A DNA stretch of 64,000 nt from an uncultured Gammaproteobacteria bacterium (GTDB lineage Bacteria > Cyanobacteriota > Vampirovibrionia > JBFMGH01). The notes under the pieces are model-generated. The model searched no databases, was not told where the DNA came from, and saw nothing but the letters and a program-made list of their open reading frames with translations. Below, piece after piece: positions 42,773-46,809 of the stretch. The first letter of the stretch is position 1. Each line of letters begins with the position of its first letter. Both the position numbers and the translations under genes were made by a program. The DNA lies in the NCBI GenBank assembly GCA_964517135.1, contig CAZFBA010000008.1:40064-104063 (forward strand), written 5' to 3'.

Positions 42773-42999
42773 TGTGCTGATACATGGATTATTGTAACGC
42801 TTTTTGTCTTTGTATTACTCTTATATTCGCTCTTTTAGTTTTTTATTTCTGGTTATGAATAGCTATTTTTGATGAATTTTGGTTTAAACTTATAAAAAGA
42901 AAGAGCATAAGTGGTTTTTGACTGAAATCCTTTATAAGAATGCATTTTGATGCTTTTGATATAATAAACCAAGTATTATTAACCATAGAGGGGAATTAT

Positions 43000-43668
43000 A
43001 TGTCAACACAATTATCCGAAAAACTAGAGGCTGAATTTGTATCACTTGTGAAGCAAAGCTGGAAGACCCACCAGATCTATTTTTGGAATAACAGCGTAGA
43101 TGAAATTCTTATTGGTGCAGTTATTAACGCCAGTCTTGAAAAAGGCTATCTCCTGATAGATATTGCTTCAGAACGCCCATATCCTTATTCTGCTGCTACA
43201 ACATCCACAACAGGAGCATCTACTACAGGGGCGCCACCAACAGGCCCGATCTCTGCTATCCCTATTAATGCTCACTTTTTAAGATTTGAAAGTCCAAAAG
43301 ATAACAGTAGATTAATTTATCAGCTTGAAAGGATTACTACTGACCTTGCTGAAACGAAAGTTCTTGGTCAGCTTGCCAGAGTTACAATTGGATACGGAGA
43401 AAAGGCCAGTAACTTTAGTCAAACACTTGATATACTAAAGCAAGAGCTAAAATCAACTTTCGTAGATACAAGTGAACCCGGCATTATTACTTTCGATGCC
43501 AACATGAGTTCAGGCTATGTATATGCTCAGGTAACAATTATTATTAATATCGCCGACTATAACCTTGAGGATAAGATTAGCCATATCGACTACGATAAGC
43601 TGAATTACCACATTGAAGCGGTCGTTCACTCTCTAAAAAAATATCTAAAAGGCAGAAACATAATATAA
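43000..43668 (+). CDS. Hypothetical protein (two domains joined by a Thr/Gly/Pro-rich linker)
   Basis: ATG at 43000 preceded by AGAGGGG about 7 nt upstream (track ORF begins 42940). MSTQLSEKLEAEF...; linker SAATTSTTGASTTGAPPTGP; no family recognised. Confidence 0.55.
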   Translation: MSTQLSEKLEAEFVSLVKQSWKTHQIYFWNNSVDEILIGAVINASLEKGYLLIDIASERPYPYSAATTSTTGASTTGAPPTGPISAIPINAHFLRFESPKDNSRLIYQLERITTDLAETKVLGQLARVTIGYGEKASNFSQTLDILKQELKSTFVDTSEPGIITFDANMSSGYVYAQVTIIINIADYNLEDKISHIDYDKLNYHIEAVVHSLKKYLKGRNII

Positions 43669-43680
43669 AGGAGATTATAA

Positions 43681-44223
43681 ATGGGATTTTTTCAACTGGT
43701 ACAGGAATTTGCACACAAAAGGGAAATGCGTGAAAGCAAAGATGAAATACTCTTTGGTGAACTTATTAGATTAATGGTCAGAAATTACGGTCCACTTGTG
43801 GAACTCGAAACTTCTTCATACAGTGATCACAAACAGGCACGTTTTAGACTTCTTAATCATCCCCTGTTACATTCTGTTACCATTAAAGTAAATCGCTGGA
43901 CTGGCACAGGGGCTGTTTCAGAGGCGTTATTTGGAAGCATAGGCTCAGTCACCATAGTAGGAGAAGTTAAAAACTATGTTGCAGATCCTGATGATGTCTT
44001 AAATATGTGGAAAACAGACTTTAGTAATATTGGCAAAATACCTCTTCTAGGAGGCATAAAGGTTAATCACCAGATGAACTCTATTCTTGCAACCAAAGCA
44101 CGCAAGATAACTATCGGTGACTTCGTTAATAGCCAGCAAGAAGAACGCCAGAAACTCCAGGAAGAAATTAAAAGCGATATTAACGAGCTCTGTGAACAGC
44201 TTAAAAAGTTTAAAAAAGCCTAA
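43681..44223 (+). CDS. Hypothetical protein
   Basis: 180 aa; ATG preceded by AAAGGAG 7 nt upstream, directly after the stop of the preceding gene (operon). Coiled-coil-like C-terminus (QEERQKLQEEIKSDINELCEQLKKFKK). No family recognised. Confidence 0.55.
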   Translation: MGFFQLVQEFAHKREMRESKDEILFGELIRLMVRNYGPLVELETSSYSDHKQARFRLLNHPLLHSVTIKVNRWTGTGAVSEALFGSIGSVTIVGEVKNYVADPDDVLNMWKTDFSNIGKIPLLGGIKVNHQMNSILATKARKITIGDFVNSQQEERQKLQEEIKSDINELCEQLKKFKKA

Positions 44224-44252
44224 AATTGCTAATTATTAGTAATGATTATTGT

Positions 44253-44289
44253 ATGGCGTGGCTTTGCTACGCCATACTTGCTTTTGTAT
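44253..44289 (+). terminator. Putative intrinsic terminator
   Basis: Inverted repeat ATGGCGT-ggctttgct-ACGCCAT (7-bp stem) followed by the moderately T-rich acttgcttttgtat, 30 nt after the stop at 44223. Confidence 0.45.
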
Positions 44290-44752
44290 AATAGTATCAT
44301 TCCTTGCTGCCAATTGTATTGTAAACCAGAGATTACAATATAATTGATAATCAATAATAAGTGTAGTATTGAGATTGGCTGAATCCTGATATGTACTATA
44401 GGTGTAAAAAGTAAACCTAATTGTAACATTTACATTAATATTTATACAACTGTTTTGACTCATACCGGCCCGAATATATTAAAACAATCAGCTATATTCG
44501 CTTAAACATTTTGTTATAAACACTCGCAGAAAATGTTCCATTGTGATATGATGATAGCCACTTTTTTAGTGTTTATACAACAATTAATTTAATAAACCTG
44601 TTGGCTGAATTTATTATCCTGAAAGGTTTTTAGTGATTTTTATCCATATGAAACCAATACATAAATCTTGAAGTATTGTTAAGTTTCCTTTCTTTGCATG
44701 TCAACTTTTTCATAAAATGTGTTTTTAAACATATAGAATAATTAAGTTTTAG

Positions 44753-44784
44753 TTGACACAAAAAGGAGGGTGCATATGACATAA
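44753..44784 (+). promoter_or_regulatory. Leader element: TTGACA hexamer, strong SD (AAGGAGGG) and 2-codon mini-ORF ATG-ACA-TAA upstream of the HEAT-repeat gene
   Basis: Read directly: ttgacacaaaaaggagggtgcatATGacaTAAaagtaaagggcattAAGGAGGacctaaATG. A second SD then serves the real start at 44812. Confidence 0.35.
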
Positions 44785-44811
44785 AAGTAAAGGGCATTAA
44801 GGAGGACCTAA

Positions 44812-45663
44812 ATGGGCATTAATACAAATAAAAAGCAAAAACAAGTAGAAAAAACCTTCGACGAGTTAATATACGAGCTTCAAAACAGTCCATCCGAAAA
44901 AGTTAGATACAATGCAGCCAGAATGTTAGGCGAGTTAGGTGATTCAAGAGCAGTAGAGCCACTCATAGGTGTTTTACAGGAAGATAAAAACGGTTCTGTT
45001 CGTCTTTATGCCGCCAGAGCTTTAGGTGAATTAGGTGATATACAGGCCACTGAACCGCTGATTAACTCTTTAAAAGAAGATAGAAACGTTGATGTTCGTG
45101 TTAGAGCCGCCAGAGCGCTTGGTAAATTAGGTGGCAAAACGGTTGTAGCACCGTTAGTAGAAGCTTTAAGTGACAATAATAGTCAGGTTTGTTTAACAGC
45201 TACTGATGCATTAATAGAAATTGGCGAAATAGCTGTGGAAGCTCTTGTTGAATCTCTCTATCATGAAAAAGTTAATGTTCGCTGTGATGCAACCAGAGCA
45301 CTGGGTGAATTAGGTAACATAAAAGCTGTTGAGCCTATTATAGGAATGCTGGAAGATGAATGGGTTAATGTTAGAATCTATGCTGTTAACTCTCTTGGCA
45401 AACTGGGCGATACAAAAGCTGTTCCGGCTTTAGTAAAAGTTTTACAGGATGAATCTGAAAATGAACTCGTTAGAGCTGGCGCCGCTGCTGCACTTGGTGC
45501 ACTCAGAGATGTTAGAGCATTACTCCCTCTGAGAGAACTTATCATGGCTGCTGAAGAGCTTGGAGAACTTGAAGATACAGCTCTGAAAGCTTTCAAACAG
45601 ATTATGGCTGCCAACTGGAAAAATGTTCCTGGCGCTACAAATAAAAAAGCCATAAATAAATAG
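44812..45663 (+). CDS. HEAT-repeat protein (PBS-lyase HEAT-like repeats)
   Basis: 283 aa; tandem ~31-aa repeats of the form VR..AARALGELGD..AVEPLI..L.D (at least six), typical of PBS-lyase-type HEAT repeats. Confidence 0.85.
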   Translation: MGINTNKKQKQVEKTFDELIYELQNSPSEKVRYNAARMLGELGDSRAVEPLIGVLQEDKNGSVRLYAARALGELGDIQATEPLINSLKEDRNVDVRVRAARALGKLGGKTVVAPLVEALSDNNSQVCLTATDALIEIGEIAVEALVESLYHEKVNVRCDATRALGELGNIKAVEPIIGMLEDEWVNVRIYAVNSLGKLGDTKAVPALVKVLQDESENELVRAGAAAALGALRDVRALLPLRELIMAAEELGELEDTALKAFKQIMAANWKNVPGATNKKAINK

Positions 45664-45686
45664 ATTTAAAAAGGTTTTACAATTAT

Positions 45687-45718
45687 CAAAAAATACGTCT
45701 GATGGCGTATTTTTTGTG
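45687..45718 (+). terminator. Putative intrinsic terminator
   Basis: AAAAAATACG-tctgatgg-CGTATTTTTT hairpin (10-bp, A/U-rich stem) with U tract, about 25 nt after the HEAT gene stop. Confidence 0.45.
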
Positions 45719-45762
45719 TTATTGTGGTTTCTGGCTTTTAACTTACAGACAGAGGTAGATAA

Positions 45763-46809
45763 ATGTTAATTGTAATGAACCACAACGCAACCGAACAGCA
45801 AATAGAAAGAGTTCTTACACTTGTAAATCAGTTTGGTTTTGATATACACAGGTCTTCAGGTAAGACTAATACGGTTATTGGCGTTGTTGGTGAGAATACA
45901 CATAAGGTTGATCATCGTGTCTTCGAGCTCCTTGATGGAGTCAGGGAGGTTATAAAAATATCGTCACCCTATAAACTGGCCTCAAGAGCATTTAAAGAAG
46001 AAGACACAATTGTAAAAGTAAGTCAGAACACATCTATTGGTTCTTCAGAAATAATAATTATGGCTGGTCCCTGTGCTGTTGAGTCGAAAGAATGCCTTCA
46101 ATCCACAGCAGACTGTGTTAAGGTGGCTGGTGCAAAGGTACTAAGAGGCGGGGCCTTTAAACCACGTACTTCACCCTATGCCTTTCAGGGCCTGGGAGAA
46201 GAAGGTCTTCAATATCTCAGAGAAACTGCTGATAAACTGGGTATGGCTGTTGTGTCTGAGGTTATGGAAATCAGTCAGATTGAATTGTTCCTTAAATATG
46301 TTGATATTATTCAAGTCGGAGCAAGAAATATGCAGAACTTTAACCTCTTAAAAGAACTGGGACAGGTTAAAAAGCCGGTTATGCTCAAAAGAGGTCTCTC
46401 TGCGACCATAAAAGAGCTTTTGATGTCTGCGGAATACATCCTGTCGGGCGGCAATAATGATGTTATACTCTGTGAGAGAGGTATCAGAACCTTTGAAAAT
46501 TCAACACGAAATACGCTTGATATATCAGCAATACCGGTCATTAAATCCTGGAGTCACCTGCCTATAGTAGTAGATCCCAGCCATGCTACAGGTCTGAGAG
46601 ATAAAGTAGCACCGATGGCCAGAGCTGCTATTGCAGCGGGTGCTGATGGGCTAATTATAGAAGTGCACTGTGATCCTGATATGGCACGCTGTGACGGCGC
46701 TCAGTCACTTTATCCACAGCAGTTTAAACAGCTGATGAGAGAACTTAGTATCATTTCGCCTGCGGTTGGCCGGGAAATTAACACAAATGTAGTCGAAAAG
46801 GCTTTTTGA
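45763..46809 (+). CDS. aroF: 3-deoxy-7-phosphoheptulonate (DAHP) synthase, AroF/KDOPS-like class with N-terminal regulatory domain
   Basis: 348 aa; N-terminal ACT/ferredoxin-like domain, then TIM-barrel catalytic core (IMAGPCAVES..., KVLRGGAFKPRTSPY, DIIQVGARNMQNF, KRG). ATG with AGAGG upstream. Confidence 0.85.
   Translation: MLIVMNHNATEQQIERVLTLVNQFGFDIHRSSGKTNTVIGVVGENTHKVDHRVFELLDGVREVIKISSPYKLASRAFKEEDTIVKVSQNTSIGSSEIIIMAGPCAVESKECLQSTADCVKVAGAKVLRGGAFKPRTSPYAFQGLGEEGLQYLRETADKLGMAVVSEVMEISQIELFLKYVDIIQVGARNMQNFNLLKELGQVKKPVMLKRGLSATIKELLMSAEYILSGGNNDVILCERGIRTFENSTRNTLDISAIPVIKSWSHLPIVVDPSHATGLRDKVAPMARAAIAAGADGLIIEVHCDPDMARCDGAQSLYPQQFKQLMRELSIISPAVGREINTNVVEKAF

What the first reader, a model, noticed from the sequence alone, without database searches (positions are those of the whole stretch)
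44753..44814. Two-codon mini-ORF (ATG-ACA-TAA) with its own strong Shine-Dalgarno directly upstream of the HEAT-repeat gene
The leader reads TTGACA..AAGGAGGG-5nt-ATG ACA TAA-14nt-AAGGAGG-6nt-ATG(HEAT). Minimal start-stop or few-codon upstream ORFs can act as ribosome-loading or regulatory elements. The duplicated SD-ATG arrangement is striking and read directly from the sequence.
Basis: seen in the sequence. Interest (0 to 1): 0.45.

Follow-up and report, generated by a model that had tools for sequence, protein, structure and literature searches.

The report
Conserved minimal upstream ORF before HEAT gene
The two-codon mini-ORF with its own ribosome-binding site is real and is kept, as ATG-TAA or ATG-NNN-TAA, in front of the same HEAT-repeat gene in most related uncultured Vampirovibrionales bacteria, so it is almost certainly a working translational control element and not a chance motif.

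Summary

In one window the motif is only weakly improbable: 0.14 are expected per 64 kb. Comparison with relatives settles it. The window comes from a Vampirovibrionales (Melainabacteria) genome.

- **Conservation:** of 36 orthologous leaders, 24 carry SD + ATG TAA (a start-stop) and 6 carry SD + ATG NNN TAA (NNN = ACA, AAA or TCG). Six lack it.
- **Geometry:** the element sits 34-41 nt before the main ATG. The stop is always TAA. The frame relative to the main ORF is not kept.
- **Divergence:** neighbouring columns changed 5-14 times on the gene tree. This count excludes the six losses.
- **SD strength:** the two SDs are the strongest in the window.

The mini-ORF is best read as a translated, peptide-irrelevant minimal uORF. 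It places a ribosome directly behind the main ribosome-binding site and acts in cis. I lean towards a positive effect (ribosome hand-over or mRNA protection), but a negative gate is not excluded. No experiment exists for these uncultured organisms.

The closest known elements are the axe-txe two-codon minigene and the E. coli start-stops. This is a new member of a known kind, and its order-wide conservation is unusual.

The parts
44763..44770 (+). SD1 (AAGGAGGG), the Shine-Dalgarno sequence of the mini-ORF, 5 nt before its ATG
   Evidence: Read. Duplex energy with the canonical anti-SD is -12.3 kcal/mol, the strongest of 49 ORF starts in the window. A GGAGG, GGGGG or GGAAGG core lies 4-8 nt before the upstream ATG in 29 of the 30 leaders that have the element; the exception is L047, with GAAGG at 11 nt.
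44776..44784 (+). Mini-ORF ATG ACA TAA (fMet-Thr-stop)
   Evidence: Orthologs carry ATG ACA TAA (L008, L048), ATG AAA TAA (L011, L045), ATG TCG TAA (L043), or ATG TAA in 24 loci. There are no parsimony changes in the ATG or TAA columns, against 5-14 per flanking column. The stop is TAA in 30 of 30, although long ORFs in these genomes use TAA only 43-56% of the time.
44785..44798 (+). 14-nt spacer between the mini-ORF stop and SD2
   Evidence: The distance from the stop to the GGAGG of SD2 is 13-19 nt (mode 14) in 26 non-redundant leaders, 16 in the window. The sequence itself is not conserved.
44799..44805 (+). SD2 (AAGGAGG), the Shine-Dalgarno sequence of the HEAT gene, 6 nt before its ATG
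   Evidence: Energy is -11.1 kcal/mol, second strongest in the window. GGAGG is conserved in all orthologs.
44812..45663 (+). HEAT-repeat protein gene (283 aa), the gene served by the leader
   Evidence: HEAT_2 at 1e-51 and HEAT_PBS at 9e-40. It resembles alphaRep and PBS-lyase-type HEAT repeats but falls below every NCBIfam cutoff. The orthologous family is at least 65% identical within Vampirovibrionales/Melainabacteria and then drops to about 45% for generic HEAT proteins.
45687..45716 (+). Terminator-like hairpin after the HEAT gene, which makes the gene look monocistronic
   Evidence: A matching terminator-like hairpin at 44251-77 closes the upstream operon.
44589..44617 (+). Best-conserved promoter-like candidate (TTAATA-17-TATTAT), putting the transcription start near 44624 and the mini-ORF about 150 nt into the leader
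   Evidence: Its -10 box aligns with TGcTAGAAT in L007 and TGgTATTAT in L009. Extended -10-like boxes lie 125-188 nt upstream of the upstream ATG in most clades. This is inference only; there are no transcription-start data.
44678..44739 (+). Conserved leader or promoter blocks of unknown role (GTTAAG; CATGTCAACTTTTTC...TGTGTTTTTAAACATATAGAA)
   Evidence: Nearly identical in the window, L008 and L048, and partly invariant across all clades.
44753..44758 (+).
   Evidence: Not conserved. No acceptable -10 box at 16-18 nt.

Best explanation
The leader of the HEAT-repeat mRNA carries a second, complete ribosome-binding site whose reading frame has been reduced to the minimum. It is AUG-ACA-UAA here and AUG-UAA in most relatives.

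Proposed sequence of events: a ribosome is captured by SD1, the strongest SD in the window. It forms an initiation complex on the upstream AUG, makes at most one peptide bond, and terminates at UAA. The terminating ribosome's leading edge then lies a few nucleotides 5' of SD2, 34-41 nt (start to start) behind the real start codon.

The product (fMet, or fMet-Thr/Lys/Ser) is irrelevant. The effector is the ribosome itself, acting in cis on the adjacent ribosome-binding site.

My preferred reading, at about 55:45 over the negative one, is that the effect is positive. Either the post-termination ribosome or 30S subunit is handed to SD2/AUG, or the parked ribosome keeps the AU-rich region around the ribosome-binding site covered against endonucleases. 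Either route raises HEAT-protein output.

What is shown: the anatomy, its conservation, the variability of the middle codon, the TAA-only stop and the spacing. What is inferred: that the mini-ORF lies in the transcript, that it is translated, and the direction of the effect.
For: (1) Conservation. 30 of 36 orthologous leaders keep SD + ATG + (0 or 1 codon) + TAA at 34-41 nt from the main ATG, across genomes of 30-59% GC and with different neighbouring genes. The rest of the leader is 42% identical per column.

(2) ORF signature. ATG and TAA are invariant, while the codon between them is ACA, AAA, TCG or absent. On the gene tree a start-stop leader (L047) sits inside the two-codon clade, so the length changed by exactly 3 nt at least twice. 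The frame relative to the main ORF is not kept (start-to-start distances of 34, 36, 37, 38, 39, 40 and 41 nt), so it is not an N-terminal extension.

(3) SD1 is kept at a working spacing of 4-8 nt although the spacer sequence varies freely.

(4) The stop is TAA in 30 of 30, against 43-56% TAA in long ORFs.

(5) Geometry. The stop-to-SD2 distance is 13-19 nt (mode 14). The start-to-start distance lies outside the 3-25 nt range for which ribosome-binding-site occlusion was shown in S. meliloti (PMC13285730). It is close to the 41 nt that Drechsel & Bock designed as sufficient for simultaneous occupancy (PMC3045613).

(6) Precedent. The axe-txe two-codon minigene ATG ACT TAA, which has its own SD and lies 15 nt before txe, raises txe translation in cis; mutating both its start and stop lowered reporter activity by 83%. 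Its effect depends on distance (PMC8708949).

(7) In 9 of 20 leaders, forcing open the stretch a ribosome on the upstream ATG would cover lowers the predicted opening energy of the main ribosome-binding site by 2-11 kcal/mol.
Against: - There are no transcription-start, ribosome-profiling or reporter data for these uncultured organisms, so transcription and translation of the mini-ORF are inferred.
- The element was lost in 6 of 36 leaders (L019, L029, L039, L041, L042, L046) with no obvious compensation, so it is dispensable.
- The sign is uncertain. The E. coli yecJ start-stop lowers host-gene expression by about 16% (10.1101/520783). Synthetic start-stops or one-codon mini-ORFs between closely spaced SDs lowered translation in E. 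coli, and the one-codon version nearly abolished it in plastids (PMC3045613).
- The structural-unfolding contribution is absent in the window itself (ddG -1.8 kcal/mol; leader z-score -0.55).
- The long-range helix between the upstream-AUG and main-AUG regions has no covariation support: 79% of cells paired against 77% in shuffles.
- The parsimony contrast is anchored on the element. It excludes the six leaders that lost it, and flank misalignment may inflate the flank counts.
Confidence: 0.6

Rival explanations
1. Negative gate or decoy. The mini-ORF is translated, but its ribosome hinders the main site. SD1 is stronger and better spaced than SD2, so it captures 30S subunits first. A ribosome dwelling on AUG-(NNN)-UAA abuts SD2 and delays or blocks binding there. 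HEAT synthesis would then be throttled, perhaps conditionally, for example when release or recycling factors are limiting.
For: - SD1 is stronger than SD2 (-12.3 against -11.1 kcal/mol).
- In start-stop leaders SD1 lies 4-8 nt from its AUG, whereas SD2 lies 10-13 nt from the main AUG.
- The leading edge of the terminating ribosome would fall within a few nucleotides of SD2, given the stop-to-SD2 mode of 14 nt (footprint size is from general knowledge).
- The yecJ start-stop is mildly repressive.
- Synthetic start-stop and mini-ORF constructs lower translation in E. coli, and a single elongation cycle is strongly repressive in plastids, which descend from relatives of this lineage.
- Ribosome occupancy of an upstream ribosome-binding site down-regulates the main ORF in S. 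meliloti.
Against: - The start-to-start distance of 34-41 nt is longer than the 3-25 nt range tested for occlusion, and longer than the 24 nt I counted from the printed sequences of the repressive synthetic constructs.
- Simple down-tuning could be reached by weakening SD2, yet SD2 stays strong everywhere.
- The natural two-codon minigene in axe-txe is an enhancer.
Confidence: 0.28
2. The conserved ATGTAAC is a nucleic-acid recognition motif and not an ORF. It could be half of a DNA operator (ATGTAAC-N-GTTACAT), or an RNA segment that pairs with GUUACAU copies upstream and downstream. On this reading the ATG/TAA interpretation is coincidental.
For: In the GC-richer clade the start-stop sits in a perfect or near-perfect 7-1-7 palindrome, ATGTAAC-G-GTTACAT. 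A further GTTACAT, the exact reverse complement of ATGTAAC, is conserved 95-183 nt upstream in many leaders.
Against: - The right half-site is missing in L007, L009, L015, L025, L030, L032, L037 and L047, while ATGTAA is kept. Right-half columns are only 45-80% conserved.
- The motif is split by exactly one variable codon in six leaders, including the window, which have no palindrome and no complementary upstream block; the window has GTTAAG.
- The idea does not explain a strong SD held at 4-8 nt upstream, or the TAA-only stop.
- A 1-nt loop cannot form as an RNA hairpin.
Confidence: 0.07
3. Non-functional in this genome. Either the mini-ORF lies outside the mRNA, because transcription starts after it from the TTGACA at 44753, or it is a neutral relic.
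For: - TTGACA at 44753 is a perfect -35 hexamer, and related hexamers occur in L008 and L048.
- The single-window chance expectation for the mini-ORF pattern is not negligible (0.14).
- Six lineages lost the element.
Against: - No acceptable -10 box follows the TTGACA.
- The hexamer is absent in most relatives, yet SD1-ATG-TAA is kept.
- Conservation is far beyond the background rate: about 6 independent pattern hits in 330 kb outside the HEAT leaders, against 31 at the HEAT leader.
Confidence: 0.05

Closest known systems
[quoted passage not shown]
   Same: Both are ATG + a Thr codon + TAA with their own SD, lying a short distance upstream of the SD and ATG of the next gene. The peptide is irrelevant. 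mg2 acts in cis and depends on distance.
   Different: mg2 lies 15 nt (stop to start) before txe, inside a plasmid toxin-antitoxin operon, and its enhancing effect was measured. Here the gap is 27 nt, the gene is a chromosomal HEAT-repeat gene, nothing has been measured, and the element alternates with a pure start-stop across an order of bacteria.
Bacterial start-stops found by initiation-site profiling (E. coli yecJ and hslR, Meydan et al. 2019, 10.1101/520783; C. jejuni, PMC11955535)
   Same: An SD-like sequence plus a start codon directly followed by a stop. Ribosomes bind there and no useful product is made. This is the form carried by 24 of the orthologous leaders.
   Different: The E. 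coli and C. jejuni cases listed in those papers are internal to genes and out of frame. The one effect measured there (yecJ) is small, and I saw no evolutionary-conservation analysis of them in the passages I read. Here the element is in a 5' leader, has a very strong SD, and is conserved. The window's own copy has one sense codon, so it is not strictly a start-stop.
   Same: A two-codon ORF with an SD and a UAA stop.
   Different: bar acts in trans, by peptidyl-tRNA drop-off and tRNA starvation in Pth-deficient hosts. Nothing here suggests a trans or toxic role, and the middle codon is not conserved.
Synthetic tandem-SD, start-stop and one-codon mini-ORF leaders tested in E. coli and tobacco plastids (Drechsel & Bock 2011, PMC3045613)
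   Same: The architecture is the same: SD-ATG-(codon)-TAA-SD-ATG. This work is the only experimental comparison I found of the start-stop and one-codon versions.
   Different: The synthetic versions are more tightly packed, about 24 nt start to start by my count of the printed sequences, and were neutral to repressive. The natural element keeps 34-41 nt.
Ribosome-mediated occlusion of the main ribosome-binding site by upstream ones in Sinorhizobium meliloti (Dietz et al. 2026, PMC13285730)
   Same: An upstream SD and start codon that is ribosome-occupied but gives no useful product, and that acts through the ribosome's bulk.
   Different: That mechanism was defined for start-codon distances of 3-25 nt and for longer overlapping uORFs. 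Here the distance is 34-41 nt and the ORF ends before SD2.
Eukaryotic start-stop elements (Arabidopsis NIP5;1 AUG-UAA; human 5' UTR start-stops, PMC13338717)
   Same: A minimal uORF without elongation that works through ribosome dwell time.
   Different: These depend on scanning and have no SD. They are generally repressive and belong to a different translation system.

Membership tests
Two-codon minigene / mini-ORF (axe-txe mg2, lambda bar type) | ATG, one sense codon, then a stop | tested here: met
   ATG ACA TAA at 44776-84. Five further orthologs carry ATG NNN TAA.
Two-codon minigene / mini-ORF (axe-txe mg2, lambda bar type) | Own Shine-Dalgarno sequence at a working distance | tested here: met
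   AAGGAGGG lies 5 nt upstream, at -12.3 kcal/mol.
Two-codon minigene / mini-ORF (axe-txe mg2, lambda bar type) | Translation of the mini-ORF changes expression of the downstream gene in cis | not testable with these tools
   This needs reporter fusions. Only purifying selection is shown here.
Two-codon minigene / mini-ORF (axe-txe mg2, lambda bar type) | Peptidyl-tRNA drop-off or toxicity in Pth-deficient cells (bar type only) | not testable with these tools
   No experiment is possible. The variable middle codon (ACA, AAA, TCG) argues against dependence on one tRNA.
Bacterial start-stop (Meydan et al. 2019) | [quoted passage not shown] | tested here: not met
   The window copy has one sense codon between them. 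The feature is met in 24 orthologous leaders with ATG TAA, so the window copy is a one-codon derivative of a start-stop family.
Bacterial start-stop (Meydan et al. 2019) | Ribosome occupancy at the start codon shown by profiling or toeprinting | not testable with these tools
   These are uncultured organisms known from metagenome-assembled genomes, and no data are available.
Upstream ribosome-binding-site occlusion (Dietz et al. 2026) | Upstream and main start codons 3-25 nt apart, so that two ribosomes cannot bind together | tested here: not met
   The distance is 36 nt in the window and 34-41 nt in all 26 non-redundant leaders.
Leader-peptide attenuation / arrest-peptide uORFs (erm, trp type) | A leader peptide of several codons whose sequence or codon content senses a signal | tested here: not met
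   The ORF has 1-2 codons and its only sense codon is not conserved.
Known cis-regulatory RNA families (Rfam 15) | Match to a covariance model at or near the gathering score | tested here: not met
   There are no gathering-level hits in the whole window. In an E-value-threshold search of 43000-46500 (E up to 10), nothing scored above 27 bits, and the only hit inside the leader reached 19.8 bits against a gathering score of 45.
5' mRNA stabiliser of the STAB-SD / aprE-leader type (from my own knowledge) | An SD-like sequence or ribosome-binding site close to the 5' end, often with a 5' stem-loop, that prolongs mRNA half-life | tested here: inconclusive
   A stem-loop directly 5' of SD1 exists in 9 relatives (z-scores -2.1 to -4.7, with the stem sequence differing between relatives while pairing is kept). 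It is absent in the window clade. The transcription start is unknown, and the best promoter candidate puts SD1 about 140 nt from the 5' end. Half-life cannot be tested.

The most novel reading that the evidence does not exclude
The AUG-(NNN)-UAA site may be a gauge of translation status conserved across a bacterial order. The dwell time of a ribosome on a start-stop depends on release and recycling factors and on free-ribosome supply. Its leading edge abuts SD2, so the dwell time would set access to the main start. This would couple synthesis of a highly conserved HEAT-repeat protein with basic tails, itself perhaps associated with the ribosome or with RNA, to the state of the translation apparatus. 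It would be the first bacterial start-stop with a defined physiological sensing role.
Probability: 0.1. Interest if true: 0.8.

Novelty: new member of a known kind. Interest (0 to 1): 0.55.

Why it matters
Start-stops and one-codon mini-ORFs have been seen in bacteria mainly as ribosome-profiling peaks or single plasmid cases. Whether they are selected features or noise remains open.

Here a minimal uORF is held for a long evolutionary time in front of one gene. Its signature is that only SD, ATG, TAA and spacing matter, and its length is never more than two codons. That is direct evolutionary evidence that such elements can be functional in bacterial 5' leaders.

It also offers a compact leader of about 60 nt that can be moved into a model host. 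There one could test how a non-elongating ribosome affects the neighbouring start site. The natural start-stop and one-codon versions can be compared directly, and in plastids these two behaved very differently.

Tried and rejected
1. **Rfam.** No family matches the leader or anything else in the window.

2. **Long-range helix between the upstream-AUG region and the main-AUG region.** RNAfold predicts it in many leaders. Pair counting gives 79% of cells paired against 77% in shuffles. It is not supported as a family feature and is weak in the window.

3. **Unfolding coupling.** Holding the upstream ribosome-binding site open helps the main one in 9 of 20 leaders but not in the window, where ddG is -1.8 kcal/mol. 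The window leader is unstructured, with z = -0.55.

4. **5' stem-loop before SD1.** It is real in one subclade (9 loci) and absent in the window clade and several others. A MAFFT/RNAalifold consensus failed.

5. **Upstream anti-SD-like tract sequestering SD1 or SD2.** It is strong only in L007 (CACCUCCU). Mean z-scores are -0.5 and -0.1, so it is not general.

6. **Minus-strand ORFs.** The 55-aa ORF at 44630-44797 and the 66- and 75-aa ORFs at 44229-44463 were checked as alternative explanations. The 55-aa ORF has stops in all frames in L008 and L048, and the 66- and 75-aa ORFs show only short, weak tblastn matches in relatives. They are not genes.

7. **TTGACA at 44753 as a -35 box.** It is not conserved and has no -10 partner.

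8. **N-terminal extension or stop-codon readthrough.** The frame is not conserved, and the window has further in-frame TAA codons at 44788 and 44809.

9. **Other mini-ORFs in the window.** The SD plus 4-codon hit at 19130-59 on the minus strand lies inside a 217-aa ORF and encodes ...GKGGYGNVVIL.... The remaining hits have weak SDs.

10. **Function of the HEAT protein.** PDB, NCBIfam and gene neighbourhood were checked. Only generic HEAT/alphaRep similarity appears, there is no conserved synteny, and no functional link to translation could be drawn.
Full report

- TTGACA is at 44753-58.
- AAGGAGGG is at 44763-70, followed by 5 nt.
- ATG ACA TAA is at 44776-84, followed by 14 nt.
- AAGGAGG is at 44799-805, followed by 6 nt.
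- The ATG at 44812 starts a 283-aa ORF (44812-45663).

The ORF matches HEAT_2 at 1e-51 and HEAT_PBS at 9e-40. The gene lies between two terminator-like hairpins, at 44251-77 and 45687-716, so it looks monocistronic. The mini-ORF is in frame with the HEAT ORF in this window. Two more in-frame TAA codons (44788, 44809) separate them, so it cannot be an N-terminal extension.

**Chance.** Within this window alone the mini-ORF pattern is not very surprising. GGAGG-N4-9-ATG-NNN-TAA occurs once against 0.14 expected, and 13 of 100 shuffles have at least one. The tandem pair of AAGGAGG heptamers was never produced by 100 shuffles.

The genome is not SD-rich. There are 39 GGAGG in both strands of 64 kb, and 8 are followed by ATG within 4-10 nt. 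Only 19 of 49 crude long-ORF starts have a 4-mer SD core. Against the canonical anti-SD, SD1 scores -12.3 and SD2 -11.1 kcal/mol, against a median of -4.0 for the 49 starts. No other start reaches either value. The two strongest ribosome-binding signals of the window therefore sit 36 nt apart in one leader.

**Origin.** The exact HEAT protein occurs on metagenome contigs whose 350-nt leaders are identical to the window, so they represent the same population. The nearest genome-collection relatives are metagenome-assembled genomes labelled Vampirovibrionales or Cyanobacteriota. These belong to Candidatus Melainabacteria, the non-photosynthetic sister group of cyanobacteria. The window has about 36% GC. 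The protein family is sharply bounded: orthologs are at least 65% identical, and the next hits are generic HEAT proteins at about 45%.

**Comparative test.** I collected orthologous loci from three sources: the genome collection (L007-L009), a metagenome scan (L011-L035), and look-ups of more distant or closer homologs (L037-L048). I then read the DNA in front of each HEAT start.

| Leader type | Loci | Count |
|---|---|---|
| SD + ATG TAA (start-stop) | L007, L009, L012-L018, L020-L028, L030-L033, L037, L047 | 24 |
| SD + ATG ACA TAA | window, L008, L048 | 3 |
| SD + ATG AAA TAA | L011, L045 | 2 |
| SD + ATG TCG TAA | L043 | 1 |
| Element absent | L019, L029, L039, L041, L042, L046 | 6 |

Twenty-six of the thirty positive leaders are non-redundant. 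The genomes range from 30 to 59% GC and the flanking genes differ, so the element travels with the HEAT gene.

Other properties of the element (unless stated):

- The upstream ATG lies 34-41 nt before the main ATG.
- The stop lies 13-19 nt (mode 14) before the GGAGG of SD2.
- The SD1 core ends 4-8 nt before the upstream ATG. The exception is L047, with a weak GAAGG at 11 nt.
- The frame relative to the main ORF varies.
- The stop is TAA in all 30, although long ORFs in these sequences end in TAA only 43-56% of the time.
- The leaders have 42% mean column identity.

On a neighbour-joining tree of the HEAT proteins, the ATG and TAA columns show no parsimony change, while flanking non-SD columns show 5-14 changes each. 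That count is anchored on the element. It ignores the six losses, and flank misalignment may inflate the flank counts.

A relaxed SD + ATG + (0-1 codon) + stop pattern gives 39 hits in 330 kb of scanned strand. Thirty-one are at the HEAT leader, and about 6 independent ones lie elsewhere.

The tree places the start-stop leader L047 beside L043, inside the two-codon clade. The length therefore changed by exactly three nucleotides at least twice.

Taken together, the pattern is: invariant ATG, free or absent middle codon, invariant TAA, a strong SD at a working distance, and constrained spacing to the next ribosome-binding site. This is what selection on the act of initiation and termination would leave. 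It is not what selection on a peptide or a simple sequence motif would leave.

**What it is not.**

- No Rfam family matches.
- The minus-strand ORFs overlapping the leader are not conserved.
If it were a promoter, the mini-ORF would not be transcribed, which is hard to reconcile with the conservation.
- Better promoter candidates all lie upstream. TTAATA-17-TATTAT at 44589-617 has a -10 box that aligns with extended -10 boxes in L007 and L009. Similar boxes lie 125-188 nt before the upstream ATG in most clades. The transcription start remains unknown.

**RNA structure.** Several structural ideas were tested.

- RNAfold often pairs the upstream-AUG region (gCCAUGuaacgguu) with the main-AUG region (aauuguu..aCAUGGC), leaving SD2 in a loop. 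Consensus folding is weak or empty. Pair counts equal the shuffled expectation, 79 against 77%.
- Forcing open the footprint of a ribosome on the upstream AUG lowers the opening cost of the main site by 2-11 kcal/mol in 9 of 20 leaders. It does not do so in the window (-1.8).
- The window's leader is unstructured, with z = -0.55.
- A stem-loop directly 5' of SD1 is present in 9 GC-richer relatives (z-scores -2.1 to -4.7), with the stem sequence differing between relatives while pairing is kept. It is absent in the window clade.
- No general anti-SD-like sequestering tract exists.

Structure may therefore add to the mechanism in some clades, but it is not the universal core. The core is the pair of ribosome-binding sites and their geometry.

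**A competing motif reading.** In the GC-richer clade the start-stop lies in a 7-1-7 palindrome, ATGTAAC-G-GTTACAT. A further GTTACAT is conserved 95-183 nt upstream. This could be an operator or an RNA pairing partner in that clade.

The right half is missing in many leaders that keep ATGTAA. The motif is split by a variable codon in the window clade, which has no palindrome. The idea also explains neither SD1 nor the TAA-only stop. I treat it as a possible clade-specific add-on, not as the explanation.

**Mechanism.** The best-supported reading is a translated minimal uORF. SD1 captures a ribosome, which initiates on the upstream AUG, makes at most one peptide bond and terminates at UAA.

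Taking a ribosome to cover about 12-13 nt of mRNA 3' of the first base of the A-site codon (general knowledge), its leading edge then lies a few nucleotides 5' of SD2.

Two-codon leaders mostly have a short SD2-to-ATG spacing of 6-7 nt. Start-stop leaders have 10-13 nt. This keeps both the stop-to-SD2 distance and the start-to-start distance roughly constant, and it suggests that the register of two neighbouring ribosomes is what is conserved.

The start-to-start distance of 34-41 nt is beyond the 3-25 nt range in which occlusion of the main ribosome-binding site was shown in S. meliloti (PMC13285730). It is close to the 41 nt that Drechsel & Bock designed as sufficient for simultaneous occupancy (PMC3045613).

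The nearest natural precedent is the axe-txe minigene ATG ACT TAA. It enhances translation of the next gene in cis and depends on distance; mutating both its start and stop lowered reporter activity by 83% (PMC8708949).

On these grounds I lean towards a positive role. Either the post-termination ribosome is handed to SD2/AUG, or the AU-rich start region is protected from endonucleases.

The opposite sign is a serious rival.

- The yecJ start-stop represses mildly.
- Synthetic start-stop and one-codon mini-ORFs between tightly packed SDs lower translation in E. coli. A single elongation cycle nearly abolishes it in plastids.
- SD1 is both stronger and better spaced than SD2.

Six independent-looking losses show the element modulates expression and is not essential.

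**Comparison with known systems and novelty.** The window copy meets the sequence definition of a two-codon minigene with its own SD. It fails the strict definition of a start-stop by one codon, but it belongs to a family whose majority form is a start-stop. It does not meet the distance criterion of ribosome-binding-site occlusion, nor the peptide criterion of leader-peptide attenuators.

It is a new member of the known class of minimal bacterial uORFs. Four things are new:

- its location in a 5' leader;
- its conservation across an order of uncultured bacteria;
- the 1-to-2-codon toggling with a free middle codon;
- the strict use of UAA.

I found no report of an evolutionarily conserved bacterial leader start-stop in the literature searches. 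The library searched is incomplete.

**Verdict.**

| Question | Verdict |
|---|---|
| Observation | Confirmed |
| Function | Inferred, not measured |
| Sign of the effect | Uncertain |
| Interest | Moderate to fairly high for specialists in bacterial translation |

Noticed in passing
window 44678-44739; L007, L009 and L012-L028 at 95-183 nt upstream of the upstream ATG: Leader or promoter blocks are conserved across all clades. One is a GTTAC(A)/GTTAAG block; another is a TTTTWAWGCAnnT block (window: CATGTCAACTTTTTC...TGTGTTTTTAAACATATAGAA, nearly identical in L008 and L048). On the minus strand the TGTCAA/TATCAA block reads as a -35-like TTGACA/TTGATA. Their role is unknown: promoter, operator or RNA element.
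   Followed up: partly
L014, L016, L018, L021, L028 and similar loci, at the start-stop: In the GC-richer relatives the start-stop is embedded in a perfect 7-1-7 palindrome, ATGTAAC-G-GTTACAT. Another GTTACAT, the reverse complement of ATGTAAC, lies about 135 nt upstream. This could be an operator or alternative RNA pairing. It is not present in the window clade.
   Followed up: partly
L012, L013, L014, L016, L017, L018, L021, L026, L030, directly 5' of SD1: A stem-loop of 8-12 bp, whose stem sequence differs between relatives while pairing is kept, ends 1-3 nt before SD1 (z-scores -2.1 to -4.7). It is absent in the window, L008, L011, L007, L009, L015, L025 and L032.
   Followed up: yes
start-stop leaders, between SD2 and the main ATG (for example L012 330-350): The main ribosome-binding site of most start-stop leaders has an unusually long spacing of 10-13 nt from GGAGG to ATG. 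Most two-codon leaders, including the window, have 6-7 nt. The start-to-start distance therefore stays at 34-41 nt.
   Followed up: partly
window 44224-44811: The intergenic region before the HEAT gene is unusually long, at 588 nt. A strong promoter-like TTGCTA-17-TATAAT (44264-92) overlaps the terminator hairpin of the upstream operon (44251-77). The AT-rich minus-strand ORFs there show only weak, partial conservation.
   Followed up: partly
window 42940-44223: The upstream gene pair encodes proteins of 242 aa and 180 aa. Neither matched Pfam or NCBIfam in my scans. A precomputed annotation lists PF27355 (MJ1278) for the 242-aa protein. The pair is syntenic only in the closest relatives.
   Followed up: no
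whole window: SD usage is low. The median SD/anti-SD energy at long-ORF starts is -4.0 kcal/mol, and only 8 GGAGG + ATG pairs occur in 64 kb. The HEAT leader's two SDs are therefore extreme outliers.
   Followed up: yes
L046 about 370-425, compared with L043 540-600: In L046, a close relative of L043, the mini-ORF is gone and a perfect TATAAT box sits where it would be. The downstream GTGAAGGGAAC(C)GTTGGAGGAA stretch is kept. This is an apparent replacement of the uORF by a promoter.
   Followed up: no
L042 (CP091731, a complete Melainabacteria genome) 561-1410: The HEAT ortholog there is called as two ORFs, of 82 aa and 169 aa. This suggests a frameshifted or split gene, and its leader lacks the mini-ORF.
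   Followed up: no
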